From assembly GCA_048884785.1 (NCBI GenBank), contig JBHLQM010000082.1, positions 1 to 11,060 of the forward strand: a stretch of DNA of 11,060 nt, read 5' to 3'. Positions 1,995-11,060 of this stretch are shown here, piece by piece. The notes beneath the pieces are model-generated. The model did not search any database. It saw only the letters and a list, made by a program, of their open reading frames with translations, and was not told where the DNA came from. The position numbers were made by a program, and so were the translations under genes. Positions within the stretch are counted from its first letter, which is position 1. The number at the start of each line of letters is the position of its first letter. The stretch is from Candidatus Thorarchaeota archaeon (GTDB lineage Archaea; Asgardarchaeota; Thorarchaeia; Thorarchaeales; Thorarchaeaceae).

Positions 1995-2585
1995 ATGAAA
2001 GCGGAAGCAAAAGAAGCCTTGGAGTTGGCAGAGCAAAGGTGGGCTGATAAAGAAACTCCGAGCTATATCGATATACAACAGCTTGACATGATGGAAATCG
2101 AGTCTTTTGTTGACTTTTATAATCGCTGTTTTATCGCCTCACCAGATCCTTTTTGTCCACTGACCTACGAGGATGCAAGAAAACTCAGTCCCGATGGAAT
2201 CTTTGTGGCTAAACTTGCCGAAGAACAAGCTGGATTCATTGCCTGTTTCATCGAAAAAGAGGAGGAATCTAGCTATGGTGAAATTACAGGGATAGGAGTC
2301 CTTCCCAACCGGAGAAGAAGAGGAGTTGCAACCGCGCTCATCAAAAGGGCTACGACTTTTTTCCTCGAATCTGGCGTTGACGATGTATACTGCGAAGTAT
2401 ACGAAGCGAACATTCCTTCACAGATGTTGATTAAGGCTTACGGATTCAGGGAAGTTGGTCGGAGGAACATTCCCGTTCAGGTGTCAACGCCAACTCACTC
2501 AACAGATGAACTGCCGGGTGGAAAAATAATGCGTCGGTTAGGTTTGCGGCCGAGAGCAGGATGTGAAGCCTGCAGGGACATCTAA
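1995..2585 (+). CDS. GNAT-family N-acetyltransferase with a C-terminal CxxC tail
   Basis: Motif A: IGVLPNRRRRGVATALI. Motif B: VYEANIPSQMLIKAYGF. In-frame ATG 1995 (MKAEAKE) is preferred over TTG 1896. Confidence 0.9.
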   Translation: MKAEAKEALELAEQRWADKETPSYIDIQQLDMMEIESFVDFYNRCFIASPDPFCPLTYEDARKLSPDGIFVAKLAEEQAGFIACFIEKEEESSYGEITGIGVLPNRRRRGVATALIKRATTFFLESGVDDVYCEVYEANIPSQMLIKAYGFREVGRRNIPVQVSTPTHSTDELPGGKIMRRLGLRPRAGCEACRDI

Positions 2586-2625
2586 CAACAGACTGGACAG
2601 CTTATTAGCCAGATATCACCATTCT

Positions 2626-3729
2626 ATGAATGCAATGAATGAATCTGAGGTTGAGAAGGCTCATTGGTTTCCAAGAAAGATTAGCCTCAGGTATTTTGAG
2701 AAAGTGAATAATCCACGATCGATCCATGGAATCTATCCCTACAGGGGTAAGATGTCCGCTATTGATGCAGCACATGTAATTTCACAACTAATCCCGAATT
2801 CAAGATTGCTTGACCCCTTCTGCGGAACTGGTACTATCGTTTATGAGGCGCAATTGCGAGGGCATCAGGTCACAGGAGTTGATAACAATCCTTTGGCTTG
2901 TATTATTGCGCGTGGAAAGACAGAACCAATTGACAAAGAATTCACACTCTCCCATCTTGAACATTCTATAGAGAAAGCTCGATCTCTGACTTCTGTATCT
3001 CCAATGCCTGCAGCTCCTGCTGAGTATTTTCATGAAACTACCGCAGAGCAGATTATGAGAATATTAACTGTTTCAAAGAGCTTCTCTCCTTTCCTTCTTG
3101 CGTGTTTCTATGGCGCAATAAGCCTTGCCGCAAGAGCCTGCAATGGATGGCTATGGACATCAACATCGATTGGAAAAATCAACCTGCCTCTTCGAGAGAT
3201 TGATTTCTTCTCCACACTTCTTCGAAAGGTGAGAAAACATATTGATTTCGTACAGGGAACACCGCCTGTCAAAATTCATTCACATGACGTACGAGCTATC
3301 AATGAGATTGTCCCCTCAAATTCCATCGATGTTGTGTATACAAGCCCTCCTTACTTTGATGCTCTGGATTATACTGGGTACTATACAAAACTAGTGATGG
3401 AAATATTAGGAATCGATAGAAACCAAATCCGTGATGGCTTAATCCAGCGTTACTCAACTTATGAGAGCGATATGCGAGAAGCTCTATTCGCCCTCGATCA
3501 AGTAGTACATGACAAGTCAATCATTATCTTTATTGTTGGGAATCGAATGGTCCATGGGAAATTAGTACGTGGTTCCGATTTCTTTTCCAAAATAGCTCCT
3601 TGGGCTGAACCTTACGTAGTAGAACGAGAGTACACAAAGACTGCAAGTGGGCTTTGGGATAGGATAAATGCAACTACAAGAAAGGAGCAAGTGGTTGTGT
3701 GGGACCTGAAACTTGGAGGGCGAAAATAG
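2626..3729 (+). CDS. Amino-DNA methyltransferase, alpha-class motif order, probably N4-cytosine
   Basis: IHGIYPYRGKM, then the SAM-binding motif LLDPFCGTGT and GVDNNPLA near the N-terminus, and the catalytic motif DVVYTSPPY near the C-terminus. ATG 2626 or 2635 avoids overlap with the GNAT gene. Confidence 0.88.
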   Translation: MNAMNESEVEKAHWFPRKISLRYFEKVNNPRSIHGIYPYRGKMSAIDAAHVISQLIPNSRLLDPFCGTGTIVYEAQLRGHQVTGVDNNPLACIIARGKTEPIDKEFTLSHLEHSIEKARSLTSVSPMPAAPAEYFHETTAEQIMRILTVSKSFSPFLLACFYGAISLAARACNGWLWTSTSIGKINLPLREIDFFSTLLRKVRKHIDFVQGTPPVKIHSHDVRAINEIVPSNSIDVVYTSPPYFDALDYTGYYTKLVMEILGIDRNQIRDGLIQRYSTYESDMREALFALDQVVHDKSIIIFIVGNRMVHGKLVRGSDFFSKIAPWAEPYVVEREYTKTASGLWDRINATTRKEQVVVWDLKLGGRK

Positions 3730-3730
3730 A

Positions 3731-4555
3731 GTGACTAGCCATCTTGTCGTGATGGGGGATAGCCGGCATATGGATATGGTTTCCGATGAATCTGTACATT
3801 TGATTGTTACGTCTCCTCCATACTGGCAACTCAAGGACTATGGTCATGCGAATGCCATTGGCCAATCTTCTTCGACCTATGACGAGTATCTCGAGTCACT
3901 CTGTGAAGTCTTTCAAGAATGTGTAAGAACCCTTGTACCAGATGGTAAGCTCATAGTAGATATCATGCCAATACTTCTTCCAAGAACAGCATCGAAATTC
4001 AATCGTAGGATCACGAAGACAGTATTAACAGATTTAGAGGCATTCATGAGTTCTCTAGGCAATATGTACTTTCATTCTCTCTATATTTGGGATAAACGAA
4101 AGGCTGTACGATTTAGTTCGTGGGGATCATACCCCTACCCTCCTAACCTTTTGGCTACATATCCATATGAATGGATTATCGTCTTTTCCAAGAGAGGTAA
4201 ACGCCCCCCTGTGGATAAAAAGAAGAAAGCGATGTCCGCGATTACTCATGACGAATTTACAAACTGGGTTCAGAATTCCATCTGGGACTTTCAACCTGTT
4301 TCAGCAAAGAAGGAACAGCATCCTGCACCATTTCCTGAAGAACTTCCGCGTAGATGTATTCGTCTTTACTCATTTGTGGGTGATACAGTTCTTGACCCCT
4401 TTGCTGGCAGCGGAACTACCCTTAGAGTCGCGCGAGAGTTGGGACGGAATTCAATTGGGTATGAGATCAATCCTGATTTCGAACCGATTATACGAAAGAA
4501 ACTTGGCGCTAGTGACAAAGAAACTACTGATTCCTTCAATTTCATCAGAAACTGA
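3731..4555 (+). CDS. Amino-DNA methyltransferase, beta-class (N6_N4_Mtase), probably N4-cytosine
   Basis: GDSR...SVHLIVTSPPYW near the N-terminus; HPAPFPEEL, VLDPFAGSGTT and IGYEIN near the C-terminus. GTG 3731 lies 1 nt after the upstream TAG, with GGAGG at 3715-3719. Confidence 0.93.
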   Translation: MTSHLVVMGDSRHMDMVSDESVHLIVTSPPYWQLKDYGHANAIGQSSSTYDEYLESLCEVFQECVRTLVPDGKLIVDIMPILLPRTASKFNRRITKTVLTDLEAFMSSLGNMYFHSLYIWDKRKAVRFSSWGSYPYPPNLLATYPYEWIIVFSKRGKRPPVDKKKKAMSAITHDEFTNWVQNSIWDFQPVSAKKEQHPAPFPEELPRRCIRLYSFVGDTVLDPFAGSGTTLRVARELGRNSIGYEINPDFEPIIRKKLGASDKETTDSFNFIRN

Positions 4556-6987: not shown

Positions 6988-7869
6988 TTGGAGAAGACAG
7001 TTCTATTCAGACAAGAAAATGGTATGTTATCTCCACTCACTTGTCTCTCCATTGACTCAAAGGGTCGGTATGTTGTGTTTGGCAACGCTGACGCAATCAT
7101 CACAATTGTTGATACCAAATCTGGGAAGATTAAGAACACCATAGCGGGTCATGAAGGAACAATCTCTGCAACATTCTTCATTGGTGATAGAAACAAAGTG
7201 CTCTCATGTAGCTGGGATAATTCTACTCGACTATGGGATAATAAGAATATAGAGGAGTTCACTATCCTCAAACACAGCTCCGAAGTTAAAGCTCTAGCAG
7301 TCACCCCTGACCAAGGAAAAGGGGCTGCAGGATCCCGCGATGGCGAAGTCAAGGTGTTCTCTCTGAGCACGCTAAAGTCGATGAGAAATCTTCAAGCTCA
7401 TGGAACTGATGTCACAGGTCTTACTTTCATCAAAGATGGAACAAAACTTGTAACTGCCTCCTTGGATGGTGAATGTAAAATCTGGGATTTGAGTTCTTAT
7501 GAAGTAGATTTTCAGTTGAATCGTATTCCTGATAATATACGTGCTATTGCTACGAACAATGATGGCTCTAAACTCGTTCTAGGTCTACGTAGTGGTAAAA
7601 TTCTCTCAATAGACGTCGATAATCCTTCAAAGATTGATGAATTAGTCGGTCATACGGACGTCGTCAGTGCACTCTCGATAGATTCTACAGGCGAGAGACT
7701 AGCCTCTGGAAGTTGGGACCGCACAATTCGTATTTGGTCGCTTAATAGTCTAAAGGAAATATCCTCTGGTTCTCTTTTGACTGGTATTAATGCAGTCCAA
7801 TGGGATCCAAAGAATGAGATTGTGTTCTCTGCTGATTTTGCAGGAACTGTGACTTCTTGGAGTATATAA
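6988..7869 (+). CDS. Stand-alone WD40-repeat protein, about 7 blades
   Basis: Repeats include GHEGTI...SCSWDNSTRLWD, AHGTDV...TASLDGECKIWD and GHTDVV...SGSWDRTIRIWS. Seven ~41-aa units fill the 293 aa. Confidence 0.93.
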   Translation: MEKTVLFRQENGMLSPLTCLSIDSKGRYVVFGNADAIITIVDTKSGKIKNTIAGHEGTISATFFIGDRNKVLSCSWDNSTRLWDNKNIEEFTILKHSSEVKALAVTPDQGKGAAGSRDGEVKVFSLSTLKSMRNLQAHGTDVTGLTFIKDGTKLVTASLDGECKIWDLSSYEVDFQLNRIPDNIRAIATNNDGSKLVLGLRSGKILSIDVDNPSKIDELVGHTDVVSALSIDSTGERLASGSWDRTIRIWSLNSLKEISSGSLLTGINAVQWDPKNEIVFSADFAGTVTSWSI

Positions 7870-7877
7870 TCTAGAAT

Positions 7878-8486
7878 CTATCTGTATGCATCATCATCCG
7901 AAAAGATGGCTCTGATGTCAATGTCAATAAATCCCTCATTATTCCATGAAAGTCGAACGCGTTCATATCTCTTGTTTTGTTGTATAATACCCGAATTATC
8001 AGGCAATCTTGGTTCTCCGCTAAGAATGGCATCTATTGCAGTAGCAAGGCGATTTCTACTCCGTTTATCATACGGTATTGCAACTTCGGTTCGATCTCGT
8101 AATTTGAGTACAACCGCTTTATCTCCTACCTTGATAATGGGTTGCGATAGAATTATTTTTCCAGGTCTGAAATATGGAGTTTTATCCCTCATACTTCTTA
8201 TAGTCATTGCCAACTTGTTATGTCGAGCTATCTCTGCGCGCGCAGATGTTATGACATTCTCAAGATAGACTGGTCTATTATCATACTCCAGTTCAAAAGC
8301 TTCCTCTATTGCCTCTTTTATTTTTGAGCGCCCACTTAATCGGTTTTTGAGAATGGTCTTGATGACCCAATTTGTTGCGTCTGTGTATCGCTTAAATTCC
8401 TCCTTTAGCACACTCTGCTTATCTCTTGTGAGAGTGACGCTGAGAAGTTTAAGAATCTCAATCCTATCTTCAGGCATGAAGACCAC
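7878..8486 (-). CDS. Hypothetical protein resembling the N-terminal WED/REC lobe of TnpB/Cas12f, lacking RuvC (start GTG 8486 or ATG 8477)
   Basis: Intact ~200-aa ORF. The pattern LT.DKQ.VLKE.F.RY.DATNWVI, helical region, KTPYF, IIL, VVLKL...VAIP, VRLSWNNEGFIDIDI parallels the first half of IS200/IS605/IS607 TnpB. No RuvC-I GxDxG motif and no CxxC finger. Confidence 0.7.
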   Translation of the reverse strand: MVFMPEDRIEILKLLSVTLTRDKQSVLKEEFKRYTDATNWVIKTILKNRLSGRSKIKEAIEEAFELEYDNRPVYLENVITSARAEIARHNKLAMTIRSMRDKTPYFRPGKIILSQPIIKVGDKAVVLKLRDRTEVAIPYDKRSRNRLATAIDAILSGEPRLPDNSGIIQQNKRYERVRLSWNNEGFIDIDIRAIFSDDDAYR

Positions 8487-8541
8487 TGATTAGCAATCAC
8501 ATTTTTGAATCTAATCAATCTAACCGTTTCTCAATCTCCAG

Positions 8542-9633
8542 TCATATACGGTGTGCGAGAAACTCGGCTTCATTAATAATCCGGCTTATTTCTGCGGGTT
8601 GAATGTCGTAGGCTCCGTATTCGACTAGAATCTGATTGAAGAATTCCATCTCTGAATCCCTAAGGTTGTCAATGAAACCTGTTTTTTCAGGGCTGAATTC
8701 GCCTTTGAGAACTACCATGGCTTTCCCAAGTGTATTGGCTGCTTCTCTCATCTCCAAAGCGGCCAGCTCGTAATCCCCTCCGTACGTAAGATTGAGGGAT
8801 CCATGATATTGTCTCTGTGCTTGCGCAAGTAGTCTTGTAGCCTGTGTAGTGAGACTAGTATCCTCGGATTCTTCAAGTCGTGTTTCAGCTCTCTCAATCC
8901 ATGTTCTTAATTTTTCAAGAATTACAAGAAGTTTGGATTCGTCTAGTCCTCTAAGTTTGTATGTTCGAAGGAAGAGTTGATATGTTATAGGATCGAGCAT
9001 CCGAATTTCTGTTAACACCTCAGCCGGTCTAAGTACAGTGAAGATGTTATTTGACATCAAAATCAATCGACCGAATTGGAAGAGTCCCTCACGCATCTCG
9101 TATATTGCACTAGCATAGTCATCTTCGGCAACAAACCTTTTGGCACGAGATAAGGGCTCAAGCGCGGCTTTCTTCATTTCATTGATTGTTCCAACTGGCC
9201 ACGAATACTCTATCGCGCTTTTCTGCCACTTCTTTAGCATGCCCTTTGGATCATGTATGATGTGTGAAGTCCGAAATCTATTGACGACCTCTGACACTTT
9301 GAGTACATCACTAGTAGTGTGAGAGAAGACATCTTCGATCTCTCCAATTGTCATGAAGACCATATCAAGACGGACTTCTTTATGAGTAGACATGAGTCGT
9401 ACTGGCGCCTCGGCAGCATCCCAAATTATAGAGATGTCCAAGTCCGAATCTGCAGTGGCTGTTCCTTTTGCAAATGAACCGTAGACGAAAATCCCTTTTG
9501 CTTTCTCATGATTCTTCCATTCTTTTACTGTGTCATCTAGCGCTGCTTTGAAGCGATTTTGGATATCTCTCATGCTAGAACTGATCCTCCGGGTTTCAAT
9601 AATTAGGTCCTCTACATATTTTGATGGACTCAT
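8542..9633 (-). CDS. Pol-beta-superfamily nucleotidyltransferase (MNT/KNTase-like) fused to two tandem HEPN-like helical repeats
   Basis: IFVYGSFAKGTATADSDLDI (hGS...DxD) and a third Asp in RLDM. Repeats DDYASAIYEMRE (9088-9123) and GDYELAALEMRE (8743-8778). Start is ATG 9633 or TTG 9639. Confidence 0.85.
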   Translation of the reverse strand: MSPSKYVEDLIIETRRISSSMRDIQNRFKAALDDTVKEWKNHEKAKGIFVYGSFAKGTATADSDLDISIIWDAAEAPVRLMSTHKEVRLDMVFMTIGEIEDVFSHTTSDVLKVSEVVNRFRTSHIIHDPKGMLKKWQKSAIEYSWPVGTINEMKKAALEPLSRAKRFVAEDDYASAIYEMREGLFQFGRLILMSNNIFTVLRPAEVLTEIRMLDPITYQLFLRTYKLRGLDESKLLVILEKLRTWIERAETRLEESEDTSLTTQATRLLAQAQRQYHGSLNLTYGGDYELAALEMREAANTLGKAMVVLKGEFSPEKTGFIDNLRDSEMEFFNQILVEYGAYDIQPAEISRIINEAEFLAHRI

Positions 9634-9709
9634 ACTCAAAAAAGGTATCTGCTATGTTGCCCGACACTAATTAATACTCGATTTCCACCACAAACAAAGA
9701 GGTCGTGAG

Positions 9710-10417
9710 ATGTCCCGAGCCGATGGAAGAACAAATGAAGCACTCCGACCTGTTGAGTTCAAGCGAGGATATCTCAAACATCCTGAAGGTTCAGTATTGA
9801 TTACCACTGGAGAAACAAAGGTAATCTGTACTGCCACCCTCGAACTAGGAGTTCCTGGTTGGCTCAATGGCAGTGGTCAAGGTTGGATCACTGCAGAGTA
9901 TGGAATGCTTCCAAGGTCAACAAATGAACGCATGAATCGATACAAGGTAAGTGGAAGAACACAAGAGATACAGCGGCTTGTAGGTCGTTCATTGCGTGCT
10001 GCAGTTGACCTGAAAAGCATGGGCGAGAACACAATCAAAATAGACTGTGATGTTATTCAAGCCGATGGTGGTACAAGAACAGCGTCAATTACAGGCGCAT
10101 TTGTAGCTCTCTGTGACGCATTGGACTACATGGTTAACCTTGGGCTCATCTCAAAGAAACCAATAATTGGTAATGTCGCAGCAGTCAGTGTGGGAATCGT
10201 AAAGAATGAAACTCTCCTTGATCTTTGCTATCTTGAGGATTCGCAAGCTGATGTTGACATGAATATCGTTATGCGAGATAACGAATTTGTTGAGGTACAG
10301 GGGACTGGTGAAGGCAGTACTTTCAAACGAGCAGTATTAGATGAAATGCTGGATTTGGCCTCCAAAGGAATTTCTAAGCTGGTTGATCTCCAAAATCAGG
10401 TATTATCCTCTCCTTAG
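9710..10417 (+). CDS. rph: Ribonuclease PH, bacterial type
   Basis: R.DGR...[48 protein letters not shown], signature [26 protein letters not shown] and EVQGTGE. SD GAGGT at 9699-9703. Confidence 0.96.
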
Positions 10418-10624: not shown

Positions 10625-10956
10625 GCCGGAGCGCTCACTGAAATTCAGTGAAGAGCTAAGTTAGGTCCGGAGTTCAGTAGTTTCTAATCACTGAATGAAG
10701 GCTCATCGGGACCAGGCTATCAAATCGGTGCCATTCCTGATGAAGGACCGTCAATGCACTAGCTTTGGTGCCGTGCACCGATAGAAGCTAATGCAGTGAT
10801 TGCAGAGGATGGAAGTACACTGACCGAGAACGTAGGATATACACCTAACGTTAAAAGAAGTTATTACAAAACTCCTTGGCATGATTGGAATACAATCAAT
10901 CATGTTCACAGATTTGTGGACAACAGGTAATACTGTGTCAACACATGACTAGGTCC
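10625..10956 (+). other. Structured 5' leader (external transcribed spacer) of the pre-23S rRNA
   Basis: No credible ORF. Consecutive hairpins: TCACTGAA/TTCAGTGA (10635-10651), TTCAGT/ACTGAA (10673-10695), a long stem at 10750-10800, AACGTAGG/CCTAACGTT (10829-10852) and CATGATTG/CAATCATG (10880-10904). Confidence 0.65.
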
Positions 10957-10957
10957 G

Positions 10958-11060
10958 CAATTTCGCTATACGGCCAGTGGTGGATGACTAGGTTGGCTAG
11001 CTGAAGAAGGGCGTGACAAGCTGCGATATGCCGCGGGTAGACGCATGAAGTCTTTGATCC
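10958..11060 (+). rRNA. rrl: 23S ribosomal RNA, 5' end (continues beyond the window; first nucleotide approximate)
   Basis: GCTATACGGCCAGTGGTGGATG...GAAGAAGGGCGTGACAAGCTGCGATATGCC...GGTAGACGCATG matches conserved LSU domain I blocks (GGTGGATG, GA.GAAGG.CG, CAAGCTGCGATA) of archaeal style. Confidence 0.93.

What the first reader, a model, noticed from the sequence alone, without database searches (positions are those of the whole stretch)
7878..8486. Intact half-TnpB: candidate domesticated WED/REC-only protein with the entire RuvC lobe missing
Seen: an uninterrupted ~200-aa ORF whose residue pattern follows the first half of TnpB/Cas12f (first WED strand, 'LT..KQ..L.E....Y..A.N' helix, REC helices, K-P-x-F linker, remaining WED strands). 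It stops a few residues after the putative last WED strand. Reading past the TAG gives ILDYILQEVTVPAK..., which is the antisense of the WD40 gene, so no RuvC remnant follows in frame. I saw no tnpA or IS ends, and only 8 bp separate the convergent stops, leaving no free space for a downstream omegaRNA. Established: the TnpB WED/REC lobe recognises the TAM and binds guide RNA, and known domesticated TldR repressors keep a catalytically dead RuvC. Inference: a clean cut at the domain boundary in a housekeeping context suggests a different domestication route, such as a nucleic-acid-binding regulator, a protein using a trans-encoded RNA, or an inhibitor of full-length TnpB/Cas12f.
Basis: partly seen in the sequence, partly recalled or inferred. 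Interest (0 to 1): 0.82.

Follow-up and report, generated by a model that had tools for sequence, protein, structure and literature searches.

The report
Nuclease-less TnpB half kept by Thorarchaeota
This small basic gene encodes only the DNA/RNA-recognition half (WED+REC lobe) of a transposon RNA-guided nuclease of the TnpB/Cas12f type, with the cutting half gone; one family of Asgard archaea keeps it as a selected, single-copy, fixed-position host gene, a way of re-using such a nuclease that I found described in no paper.

Summary
Window 7878-8486 (-) is an intact ORF of 202 aa from GTG, more likely 199 aa from the ATG at 8477. It ends in TAG, 8 bp from the convergent WD40 gene.

The AlphaFold2 model is confident (pLDDT 90.9). 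It shows one strand, four helices, then six strands and a flanking helix. In two independent structure searches it matches only the N-terminal 180-210 residues of TnpB, Cas12f, Cas12k and Fanzor (Z up to 12.6). The alignment stops at the WED/RuvC boundary.

By sequence the family is an orphan: no Pfam, NCBIfam, PDB-profile or hhalign signal.

It occurs in 79 of 85 genomes of one Thorarchaeota family and in none of 314 other Asgard genomes. It is single-copy and always sits directly after the same nucleotidyltransferase gene. dN/dS is about 0.14. It is therefore a domesticated gene, not a decaying fragment.

Genomes without any full-length TnpB still keep it, which argues against a TnpB-inhibitor role.

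Function is inferred only: a non-catalytic nucleic-acid binder, most likely guide-less DNA binding through the TAM-reading cleft.

New here is a 15-nt element, GGTTAGATTGATTAG, conserved 31-35 nt upstream of its start and found at no other locus.

The scan had already reached the same reading of this family on other DNA (e1-5584120).

The parts
7878..8477 (-). Coding sequence of the WED+REC-only protein: 199 aa from the ATG at 8477, stop TAG at 7878-7880. The longest ORF starts at GTG 8486 and gives 202 aa.
   Evidence: ORF listing and translation. Start inferred from 108 homologues that begin MPE/MS... Purifying selection, dN/dS median 0.14.
8439..8465 (-). WED strand beta-1 (residues 8-16 in the 202-aa numbering), with invariant L14 and S16.
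   Evidence: AF2 secondary structure. Invariant columns. The topology matches that described for ISDra2 TnpB: WED residues 1-12 plus 117-176, with REC inserted after beta-1 (PMC10097598).
8187..8426 (-). REC-like four-helix insertion (residues 21-100; helices 21-48, 53-67, 72-95, 97-100). Invariant K23, Q24, E30, Y34, N39, D69, Y74, A82, R100.
7899..8177 (-). Rest of the WED OB-type barrel (residues 104-196): six strands plus a flanking helix. It carries the K-T-P-x-F linker motif, the invariant basic motif P-[FY]-D-K-R-S-R-N-R (138-146), and R176 and R178. The protein ends a few residues after the last strand.
   Evidence: The structural alignments end at residue 180 of ISDra2 TnpB (8h1j_A) and at residue 211 of AsCas12f (8dzj_A).
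8511..8525 (-). Conserved 15-nt element GGTTAGATTGATTAG, 31-35 nt upstream of the ATG. Probably the gene's own BRE/TATA-type core promoter, and possibly also an operator.
   Evidence: A core of the form ATT[G/C]AT[T/A][A/T][G/A] lies at that distance in about 40 of 48 distinct orthologous loci. It is not enriched genome-wide. In 86 genomes the 15-mer with at most 1 mismatch hits the HALF locus about 36 times and hits elsewhere only at the control rate. Genome-wide, TATA-like A/T 6-mers peak at the same distance from start codons.
8484..8488 (-). Conserved CAGTG at -11..-7 from the ATG, a Shine-Dalgarno-like site.
   Evidence: Highest information content in the upstream alignment. It coincides with the genome-wide G/C-rich dip at -13..-8.
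8542..9639 (-). Upstream co-oriented neighbour: a kanamycin-nucleotidyltransferase-like Pol-beta NTase with a large helical (HEPN-like) tail. It is the constant neighbour of the gene. A functional link is not shown.
   Evidence: Pfam. AF2 model pLDDT 88.9 and Foldseek hits to ANT(4')/KNTase. Adjacent in all 20 loci and in the most divergent members.

Best explanation
The gene encodes an exapted recognition lobe of a TnpB/Cas12f-type RNA-guided nuclease. It is a WED OB-barrel with a four-helix REC insertion, and the RuvC and zinc-ribbon (TNB) lobe has been lost cleanly at the domain boundary.

Shown:
- the fold;
- the absence of any nuclease part;
- restriction to one Thorarchaeota family;
- single copy and fixed position after the same NTase gene;
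- purifying selection;
- a probable promoter of its own.

Inferred:
- It arose at the base of this family from a TnpB-like gene and diverged beyond sequence recognition.
- It now acts as a non-catalytic, basic (pI 9.6) nucleic-acid-binding protein.

My preferred mechanism is guide-independent binding of double-stranded DNA in the WED-REC cleft, the surface that reads the TAM/PAM in TnpB and Cas12. That would make it a protein-only DNA-binding regulator. The strictly conserved 15-nt element in its own promoter is a candidate target (autoregulation). A role in binding a structured RNA is the close second.
For: Fold:
- The AF2 model has pLDDT 90.9 and pTM 0.85. Its order is strand, four helices, six strands plus a helix.
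- Foldseek against the PDB gives 24 hits at E<=1e-3. The first 41 ranks are all Cas12f, TnpB or other Cas12 effector chains (Cas12k, CasLambda, Cas12h, Cas12n); the best is 9i8y_A at E 5e-6.
- The Foldseek-independent search gives Z 12.6 for AsCas12f residues 0-211, Z 11.4 for ISDra2 TnpB 1-180 and Z 11.0 for Fanzor2. The top 31 are all in this superfamily, with 158-187 of 202 residues aligned.
- ESM-Atlas TM is 0.70-0.74 to clusters carrying PF07282/PF01385.
- The nearest clusters by language-model features are 'transposase (fragment)' families (SSO2105_N, Aq_aa04, MJ0013), score 0.96.
- The topology equals the published TnpB description: a seven-stranded WED barrel plus helix, REC of four helices inserted after beta-1, RuvC starting at residue 185 (PMC10097598).

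Domestication:
- 108 homologues of 179-236 aa.
- Present in 79/85 genomes of the family and 0/314 other Asgard genomes, one copy each.
- The six genomes without it also lack a proper orthologue of the adjacent NTase, so the locus was probably not assembled.
- The order RNase PH / NTase / this gene / M28 peptidase is kept in 20 loci from 12 genera and in the most divergent members.
- The sister family has the NTase but not this gene.
- dN/dS is 0.06-0.26.

Nucleic-acid binding:
- pI 9.6, with invariant K/R/N/Q residues including the D-K-R-S-R-N-R motif in WED.

Own control region:
-.
Against: - No sequence-level homology to TnpB could be shown. Pfam PF01385, PF07282 and PF12323 are all negative for all 33 members. 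The PDB profile search is negative. hhalign against resident Thorarchaeota TnpBs gives probability below 1%. Descent from TnpB is therefore inferred from fold and parsimony.
- No DNA- or RNA-binding test was possible.
- The 15-nt element lies exactly where ordinary TATA boxes lie in this genome, so it may be no more than a well-kept promoter.
- No second genomic site carries it, so there is no regulon to support a transcription-factor role beyond autoregulation.
- In TnpB the TAM cleft works in the context of the whole ribonucleoprotein. Whether the isolated lobe binds DNA specifically is unknown.
Confidence: 0.55

Rival explanations
1. RNA-binding adaptor. The lobe binds a structured cellular RNA through the WED surface, which holds the guide scaffold in TnpB/Cas12f. 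It would work in RNA 3'-end metabolism together with the neighbouring nucleotidyltransferase and the bacterial-type RNase PH next to the rRNA operon.
For: - The NTase-then-this-gene adjacency is constant and co-oriented in all loci.
- RNase PH is divergent from the NTase in 19 of 20 loci.
- 23S rRNA follows RNase PH in the window, in two other genera and in the sister family.
- In TnpB the WED domain contributes to scaffold-RNA binding (PMC10097598).
- The WED motif is basic.
Against: - The whole 10-kb block is syntenic, so adjacency alone is weak evidence.
- The gene has its own promoter-like element directly after the NTase stop.
- The NTase is older than this gene and exists without it in the sister family.
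- The NTase fold is closest to aminoglycoside/KNTase-type transferases, not RNA-tailing enzymes.
- The NTase catalytic carboxylates are substituted in 8 of 51 loci from three genera, so a conserved tailing activity is doubtful.
- rRNA adjacency is not conserved in several genera.
Confidence: 0.2
2. Guide-RNA-dependent DNA-binding factor. Like TldR repressors or Cas12k, it would use a trans-encoded omega-like RNA to find targets, with the RNA encoded elsewhere in the genome.
For: - Every characterised member of the fold superfamily is RNA-guided (PDB hits).
- Exapted nuclease-dead TnpBs act as RNA-guided regulators (PMC10705468; PMC10691335).
Against: - In TnpB the scaffold RNA is held by WED together with RuvC, and the heteroduplex channel is formed with RuvC (PMC10097598). 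Both are absent here.
- Known TldRs keep the RuvC fold.
- The downstream gap is -26 to 61 bp in 18 of 19 loci and overlaps a convergent gene.
- There is no Rfam hit and no conserved RNA structure around the gene.
Confidence: 0.08
3. Modulator of resident full-length TnpB elements: a dominant-negative or TAM-site competitor that tames IS200/IS605-type elements.
For: - Full-length TnpB genes are common in the same family: PF07282 hits in 65 of 86 genomes, up to 43 copies.
Against: - The gene is retained in genomes with no TnpB hit, including a single-contig genome (G320) and the window's own assembly.
- It shows no sequence similarity to the resident TnpBs.
- It is one fixed copy while TnpB load varies from 0 to 43.
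- The 5 nt upstream of the left end of one resident TnpB element family are not TTGAT-like.
Confidence: 0.05
4. Not derived from TnpB. It would be an independent or ancestral stand-alone WED-REC-like module, or a convergent OB-barrel with a helical insertion, that merely looks like the TnpB lobe.
For: - There is no detectable sequence homology.
- OB barrels and helical bundles are common building blocks.
Against: - The composite topology is matched over 158-187 residues by the whole Cas12/TnpB/Fanzor superfamily and by nothing else above Z 6.1. That topology is a helical domain inserted after the first barrel strand, a flanking helix, and an end at the RuvC linker.
- Language-model neighbours are TnpB N-terminal fragment families.
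- The family is confined to one archaeal family and its sister lacks it, so it is young relative to TnpB.
- By-eye motif likeness at invariant positions (Q after beta-1; [YT]-N-W in helix 1; P-x-F-K at the REC-to-WED turn) matches the resident TnpB consensus. This has no statistical support.
Confidence: 0.1
5. Neutrally decaying fragment of an IS element.
For: - Short 'transposase (fragment)' ORFs with this fold are common in databases.
- An earlier first-reader note on another genome read it this way (e1-1493179).
Against: - The frame is intact in about 80 genomes.
- dN/dS is 0.14.
- There are 24 invariant columns at 31-92% identity.
- Synteny is fixed.
- The promoter and SD are conserved.
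Confidence: 0.02

Closest known systems
TnpB of IS200/IS605 elements (ISDra2 TnpB, PDB 8h1j/8exa; ISFba1 TnpB 8iaz)
   Same: Same WED barrel with a four-helix REC inserted after beta-1. The model's residues 6-202 align to TnpB residues 1-180 (Z 11.4) and 4-182 (Z 8.9). Both are basic proteins.
   Different: No RuvC, no TNB zinc ribbon, no C-terminal domain. No omega-RNA locus, no tnpA or transposon ends, single copy, immobile. No detectable sequence similarity.
Miniature Cas12f (AsCas12f 8dzj/8j12, SpCas12f1 9i8y, RhCas12f 9nzp)
   Same: Best structural matches: Z 12.6, Foldseek E 5e-6, TM 0.6 by query. These cover the first ~200 residues.
   Different: No CRISPR array, no nuclease lobe, and no zinc finger in the REC/WED region (the protein has no cysteine). 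Whether it dimerises as Cas12f does is untested.
TldR (TnpB-like nuclease-dead repressors) and other exapted TnpBs (Sigma-, SpoIIE-, Flagellin-, DppD-, RHH-TnpB)
   Same: A TnpB-type scaffold immobilised in a conserved host context and under selection, presumably for binding rather than cutting (PMC10705468, PMC10691335).
   Different: Those keep the RuvC fold. At most they have mutated catalytic residues or lose RuvC-III/ZnF at the C-terminus, and they keep an adjacent guide RNA. They are bacterial apart from one euryarchaeal RHH clade. Here the entire nuclease lobe and the cis guide locus are gone, and the host is an Asgard archaeon.
'Transposase (fragment)' N-terminal TnpB families of Pfam 38 (PF27234 MJ0013, PF27229 SSO2105_N, PF27142 Aq_aa04)
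   Same: Similar length (157-262 aa) and the same predicted fold (TM 0.70-0.73). They are the nearest language-model neighbours.
   Different: Those models are not in the Pfam copy I could search, so membership was not tested. Their clusters also include full-length TnpBs and look like IS-derived pieces. No evidence is known to me that they are syntenic, single-copy host genes.

Membership tests
TnpB/Cas12 superfamily (IS200/IS605 OrfB) | WED OB-type beta-barrel with a helical REC domain inserted between beta-1 and beta-2 | tested here: met
   AF2 model. Foldseek and VIA-align hits are exclusively to this superfamily, over 158-187 residues, Z up to 12.6. Atlas TM 0.70-0.74.
TnpB/Cas12 superfamily (IS200/IS605 OrfB) | RuvC (RNase H-fold) nuclease domain with a D-E-D triad | tested here: not met
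   The protein ends at the WED/RuvC linker. PF01385 finds nothing in the protein or in the assembly. The sequence downstream is the antisense of the WD40 gene.
TnpB/Cas12 superfamily (IS200/IS605 OrfB) | TNB zinc-ribbon domain (PF07282) | tested here: not met
   No PF07282 hit. The translated protein contains no cysteine.
TnpB/Cas12 superfamily (IS200/IS605 OrfB) | Sequence-profile membership (PF12323 HTH_OrfB_IS605, PF01385, PDB profiles, hhalign to TnpB) | tested here: not met
   Searches are all negative. A resident TnpB scores PF12323 at 8.8e-17 as a positive control.
TnpB/Cas12 superfamily (IS200/IS605 OrfB) | Guide (omega) RNA encoded at or after the 3' end of the gene | tested here: not met
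   8 bp to the convergent gene here, and -26 to 61 bp in 18 of 19 loci. No Rfam family. No conserved structure detected near the gene. A trans-encoded RNA cannot be excluded.
TnpB/Cas12 superfamily (IS200/IS605 OrfB) | Mobile-element context (tnpA or another transposase, LE/RE ends, multiple copies) | tested here: not met
   One copy per genome and fixed synteny. The neighbours are host genes.
TldR (TnpB-like nuclease-dead repressor) | Retains the TnpB fold, including a degenerate RuvC domain | tested here: not met
   No RuvC domain at all. TldR definition from PMC10705468.
TldR (TnpB-like nuclease-dead repressor) | Adjacent guide RNA complementary to a promoter target | tested here: not met
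   No room and no RNA signal.
TldR (TnpB-like nuclease-dead repressor) | Immobilised, conserved genomic association and purifying selection | tested here: met
Pfam 38 N-terminal TnpB-fragment families (MJ0013 / SSO2105_N / Aq_aa04) | Match to the family HMM | not testable with these tools
   PF27234 is not in the held Pfam copy. Only fold and language-model likeness to clusters carrying these families is available.

The most novel reading that the evidence does not exclude
The recognition lobe of an RNA-guided nuclease has become a free-standing, guide-less, sequence-specific DNA-binding protein. It would be a 'TAM reader' turned transcription factor in Asgard archaea, binding the GGTTAGATTGATTAG element in its own promoter and perhaps other sites. 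This would be a third route of TnpB exaptation, beside CRISPR effectors and nuclease-dead RNA-guided repressors. It would also be a natural minimal PAM/TAM-reading module.
Probability: 0.3. Interest if true: 0.85.

Novelty: new variant of a known kind. Interest (0 to 1): 0.72.

Why it matters
Domestication of TnpB is known to give CRISPR-Cas12 effectors and nuclease-dead RNA-guided regulators. All of these keep the bilobed architecture. Here the nuclease lobe has been removed entirely, and the remaining lobe has been a core gene of an Asgard archaeal family across 16 genera.

If the lobe works alone, three things follow:
- The WED-REC module is an autonomous folding and binding unit.
- It is a natural ~190-residue scaffold for studying or engineering TAM/PAM reading.
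- It adds a transposon-derived host gene to the lineage closest to eukaryotes.

It also shows that remote, structure-only relatives of RNA-guided nucleases are missed by the sequence censuses used so far.

Tried and rejected
- Sequence routes to TnpB all failed: Pfam and NCBIfam on the protein, Pfam on all 33 aligned members, profile against PDB sequences, hhalign against resident TnpBs as a whole alignment and as trimmed N-terminal halves in local and global modes, and a word-index search for longer relatives. My first TnpB alignment, A2, contained three non-TnpB neighbour ORFs. One search repeated the test with a clean but shallow set of 7 sequences.
- Complex prediction of the NTase with this protein gave no verdict (score 0.00, below the mark). 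I count it neither for nor against binding.
- PADLOC gave no defence-system match for the protein and only generic NTase-domain hits for the neighbour.
- A conserved RNA structure in the -40..+20 region was not found: alifold gave none and the mean z was -0.4.
- Regulon search for the 15-nt element found extra hits only at the control rate.
- I tested whether the element's TTGAT core reflects the TAM of resident Thorarchaeota TnpBs. The bases upstream of the left end of one resident element family are not TTGAT-like, so I dropped the idea.
- Split-gene idea (a separate RuvC half elsewhere): no PF01385 or PF07282 match over cut-off in the window's assembly, and no PF07282 hit in a single-contig genome that has the gene.
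- Residue-level mapping of TnpB's TAM-contacting residues (Y52, S56, K76, F77, Q80, T123) onto this protein was not possible. The tools return aligned ranges only, and model coordinates are not exposed to scripts.

Full report
**1. The observation**

The minus strand of the window carries an uninterrupted ORF at 7878-8486, giving 202 aa from GTG. Homologues begin at the equivalent of the ATG at 8477, so the product is most likely 199 aa. The stop is TAG at 7878-7880. The convergent WD40-repeat gene ends at 7869, which leaves 8 bp.

The neighbours are host genes:
- a Pol-beta nucleotidyltransferase (NTase) with a helical tail, 8542-9639, same strand, upstream;
- RNase PH, 9710-10417, divergent;
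- an M28 peptidase;
- a geranylgeranyl-reductase-like flavoprotein;
- two DNA methyltransferases.

Rfam finds only the 5' end of the 23S rRNA at 10956. There is no transposase, RuvC or zinc-ribbon sequence.

**2. What the protein is**

Sequence methods say nothing:
- Pfam and NCBIfam give no family for this protein or for any of 33 aligned relatives.
- A family profile finds nothing among PDB sequences.
- hhalign against TnpB proteins taken from the same archaeal family gives probability below 1%. One of those TnpBs scores normally for PF12323, PF01385 and PF07282, which serves as a positive control.

Structure is unambiguous. The AlphaFold2 model built on the family alignment has mean pLDDT 90.9 and pTM 0.85. 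It consists of one strand (8-16), four helices (21-100), then six strands with a flanking helix (110-195).
- Foldseek against the PDB returns Cas12f, TnpB and other Cas12 effector chains (Cas12k, CasLambda, Cas12h, Cas12n) for the first 41 ranks; Fanzor2 follows at rank 43. The best hit has E 5e-6 and TM 0.61 by query.
- A search that does not rely on Foldseek, against 48,161 PDB representatives, puts 31 Cas12/TnpB/Fanzor chains on top. Z is 12.6 for AsCas12f residues 0-211, 11.4 for ISDra2 TnpB residues 1-180 and 8.9 for ISFba1 TnpB residues 4-182. The first unrelated chain has Z 6.1.

The published description of ISDra2 TnpB gives a WED domain at residues 1-12 plus 117-176, forming a seven-stranded barrel with a flanking helix. 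REC is at residues 13-116, four helices inserted after beta-1, and RuvC starts at 185 (PMC10097598). This is the same topology, and the alignment ends at the same boundary.

Two further lines agree:
- ESM-Atlas structure neighbours (TM 0.70-0.74) are TnpB clusters.
- Language-model neighbours are 'transposase (fragment)' families.

By eye, invariant positions of the family echo the consensus of resident TnpBs. These are Q after beta-1, [YT]-N-W in the first helix, and P-x-F-K at the REC-to-WED turn. This likeness has no statistical support, and I use it only as a lead.

**3. It is a host gene, not debris**

- The word-index search finds 108 relatives of 179-236 aa at 92-31% identity. All the named ones come from Thorarchaeota-type MAGs.
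- The exhaustive search of 1.8 billion representatives finds only 21 clusters, none with a nuclease part.
- Across 400 Asgard genomes the gene is present in 79 of 85 genomes of the window's GTDB family, covering all 16 genera. It is absent from all 314 genomes of the other families. It occurs as one copy per genome.
- The six family members without it also lack a proper orthologue of the adjacent NTase, so the locus was probably not assembled.
- In 20 loci from 12 genera the order NTase, this gene, then M28 peptidase and the rest is kept. The convergent WD40 gene is present in 18 of the 20.
- The most divergent members sit in the same place. One of them (377 aa) carries helical repeats where RuvC would be.
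- The single genome of the sister family has the NTase, RNase PH and 23S rRNA, but only a small membrane ORF after the NTase. The gene therefore entered this position at the base of the family.
- Pairwise dN/dS over 24 unsaturated pairs is 0.06-0.26, median 0.14.

**4. Relation to active TnpBs**

Full-length TnpB genes are common in the family: 65 of 86 genomes, with 0 to 43 copies. The half-gene is also kept where none is found, including a single-contig genome and the window's own assembly. This argues against a role that depends on resident TnpBs. It also argues against a split enzyme with a separate RuvC half.

**5. Control region (new here)**

A 15-nt element, GGTTAGATTGATTAG (8511-8525, minus strand), lies 31-35 nt upstream of the ATG in about 40 of 48 distinct loci. 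It is identical between genera whose synonymous sites are saturated. A CAGTG lies at -11..-7.

The 9-mer core is not enriched in the genome: 40 observed against 48 expected. In 86 genomes the 15-mer with at most one mismatch occurs at this locus and otherwise only at the control rate.

Genome-wide, A/T-only hexamers peak at -46..-37, and a G/C-rich Shine-Dalgarno dip lies at -13..-8. The element therefore sits where TATA boxes sit, and CAGTG is the ribosome-binding site. I read this as the gene's own promoter, directly after the NTase stop. Its unusual conservation leaves room for an overlapping operator.

**6. The neighbour**

The NTase model (pLDDT 88.9) is closest to kanamycin/ANT(4') nucleotidyltransferases: a Pol-beta domain plus a helical domain. 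Its G-S...D-x-D...D signature is intact in 43 of 51 loci and substituted in 8 loci from three genera. A conserved catalytic role, such as RNA tailing, is therefore doubtful.

**7. Mechanism**

Shown:
- a WED-REC fold;
- no nuclease;
- a basic protein (pI 9.6) with invariant K/R/N/Q residues, notably D-K-R-S-R-N-R in the WED part;
- selection;
- an own promoter.

Inferred: a non-catalytic nucleic-acid binder.

I prefer guide-less dsDNA binding in the WED-REC cleft, the TAM/PAM-reading surface (PMC10097598), possibly at its own promoter. The reason is that in TnpB the parts that hold the guide scaffold and the heteroduplex need RuvC, which is absent here. The RNA-adaptor reading is second. The guided, inhibitor, convergent-fold and debris readings follow, with the odds given in the rival entries.

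**8. Comparison and novelty**

Known exapted TnpBs all retain a RuvC fold, at most truncated at RuvC-III/ZnF, and usually an adjacent guide. These are the TldR, Sigma-, SpoIIE-, Flagellin-, DppD- and RHH-TnpB groups (PMC10691335, PMC10705468).

Six full-text searches found no description of a natural WED/REC-only derivative, and no paper linking TnpB with Thorarchaeota. The gene fails the membership tests for TnpB proper and for TldR, but it shares their recognition lobe. I class it as a new variant of a known kind.

The scan had already met this family on other DNA. An earlier follow-up (e1-5584120) reached the same reading, and several first-reader notes flagged orthologues. My tests were run independently on this window.

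Noticed in passing
window 8511-8525 (-) and 8484-8488 (-): The 15-nt element GGTTAGATTGATTAG and a CAGTG Shine-Dalgarno-like site are conserved upstream of the gene across genera. The 15-mer is unique to this locus in 86 genomes. It is more conserved than synonymous sites of the coding sequence.
   Followed up: yes
window 8542-9639 (-); loci L007-L009, L030, L032, L033, L035, L051: The neighbouring KNTase-like nucleotidyltransferase has lost one or two of its three catalytic carboxylates in 8 of 51 orthologous loci. The signatures there are GSDNN, GSDND, GATDD and GAVDS instead of GSDDD, in three genera. The rest of the protein stays conserved, so it may be a pseudo-enzyme in part of the family.
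   Followed up: partly
whole window (G000:C82) versus G000:C67 (L045): The assembly holds two complete copies of the ~10-kb syntenic block. The window copy is 84-87% identical in its NTase to genomes of another genus (g11). The C67 copy resembles the assembly's own genus (g1, long-form protein). The window contig is probably a mis-binned contig of a second Thorarchaeota organism (contamination estimate 5.4%), not a paralogue.
   Followed up: partly
L068:6001-7134 (P0124, 377 aa): One divergent orthologue, in the same synteny, carries a ~190-aa C-terminal extension of four helical repeats with no Pfam match, at the place where RuvC would be.
   Followed up: partly
L045:6995-7708, L039, L040, L043, L052 (long forms, 230-257 aa): Five or more genera have a ~40-residue insertion between the second and third REC helices, giving two length classes of the family.
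   Followed up: no
window 9710-10417 and 10956-11060; L036, L038, L053: A bacterial-type RNase PH lies divergent from the NTase. It is followed by the 23S rRNA gene in the window, in two other genera and in the sister family, but not within 7 kb in three other loci.
   Followed up: partly
window 2563-4555: A pair of DNA methyltransferase genes (N6/N4 type) is present in only some genomes of the otherwise conserved block (7 of 20 loci show one or both). It looks like a variable islet inside the syntenic region.
   Followed up: no
L045:8953-9870 (-): In the assembly's own genus a 305-aa ORF with a cysteine-rich C-terminus is inserted between the NTase and RNase PH genes.
   Followed up: no
family-wide: Full-length TnpB load varies from 0 to 43 PF07282 hits per genome within one archaeal family. 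A ~710-740-aa class of proteins carrying PF07282 also recurs in several genera.
   Followed up: no
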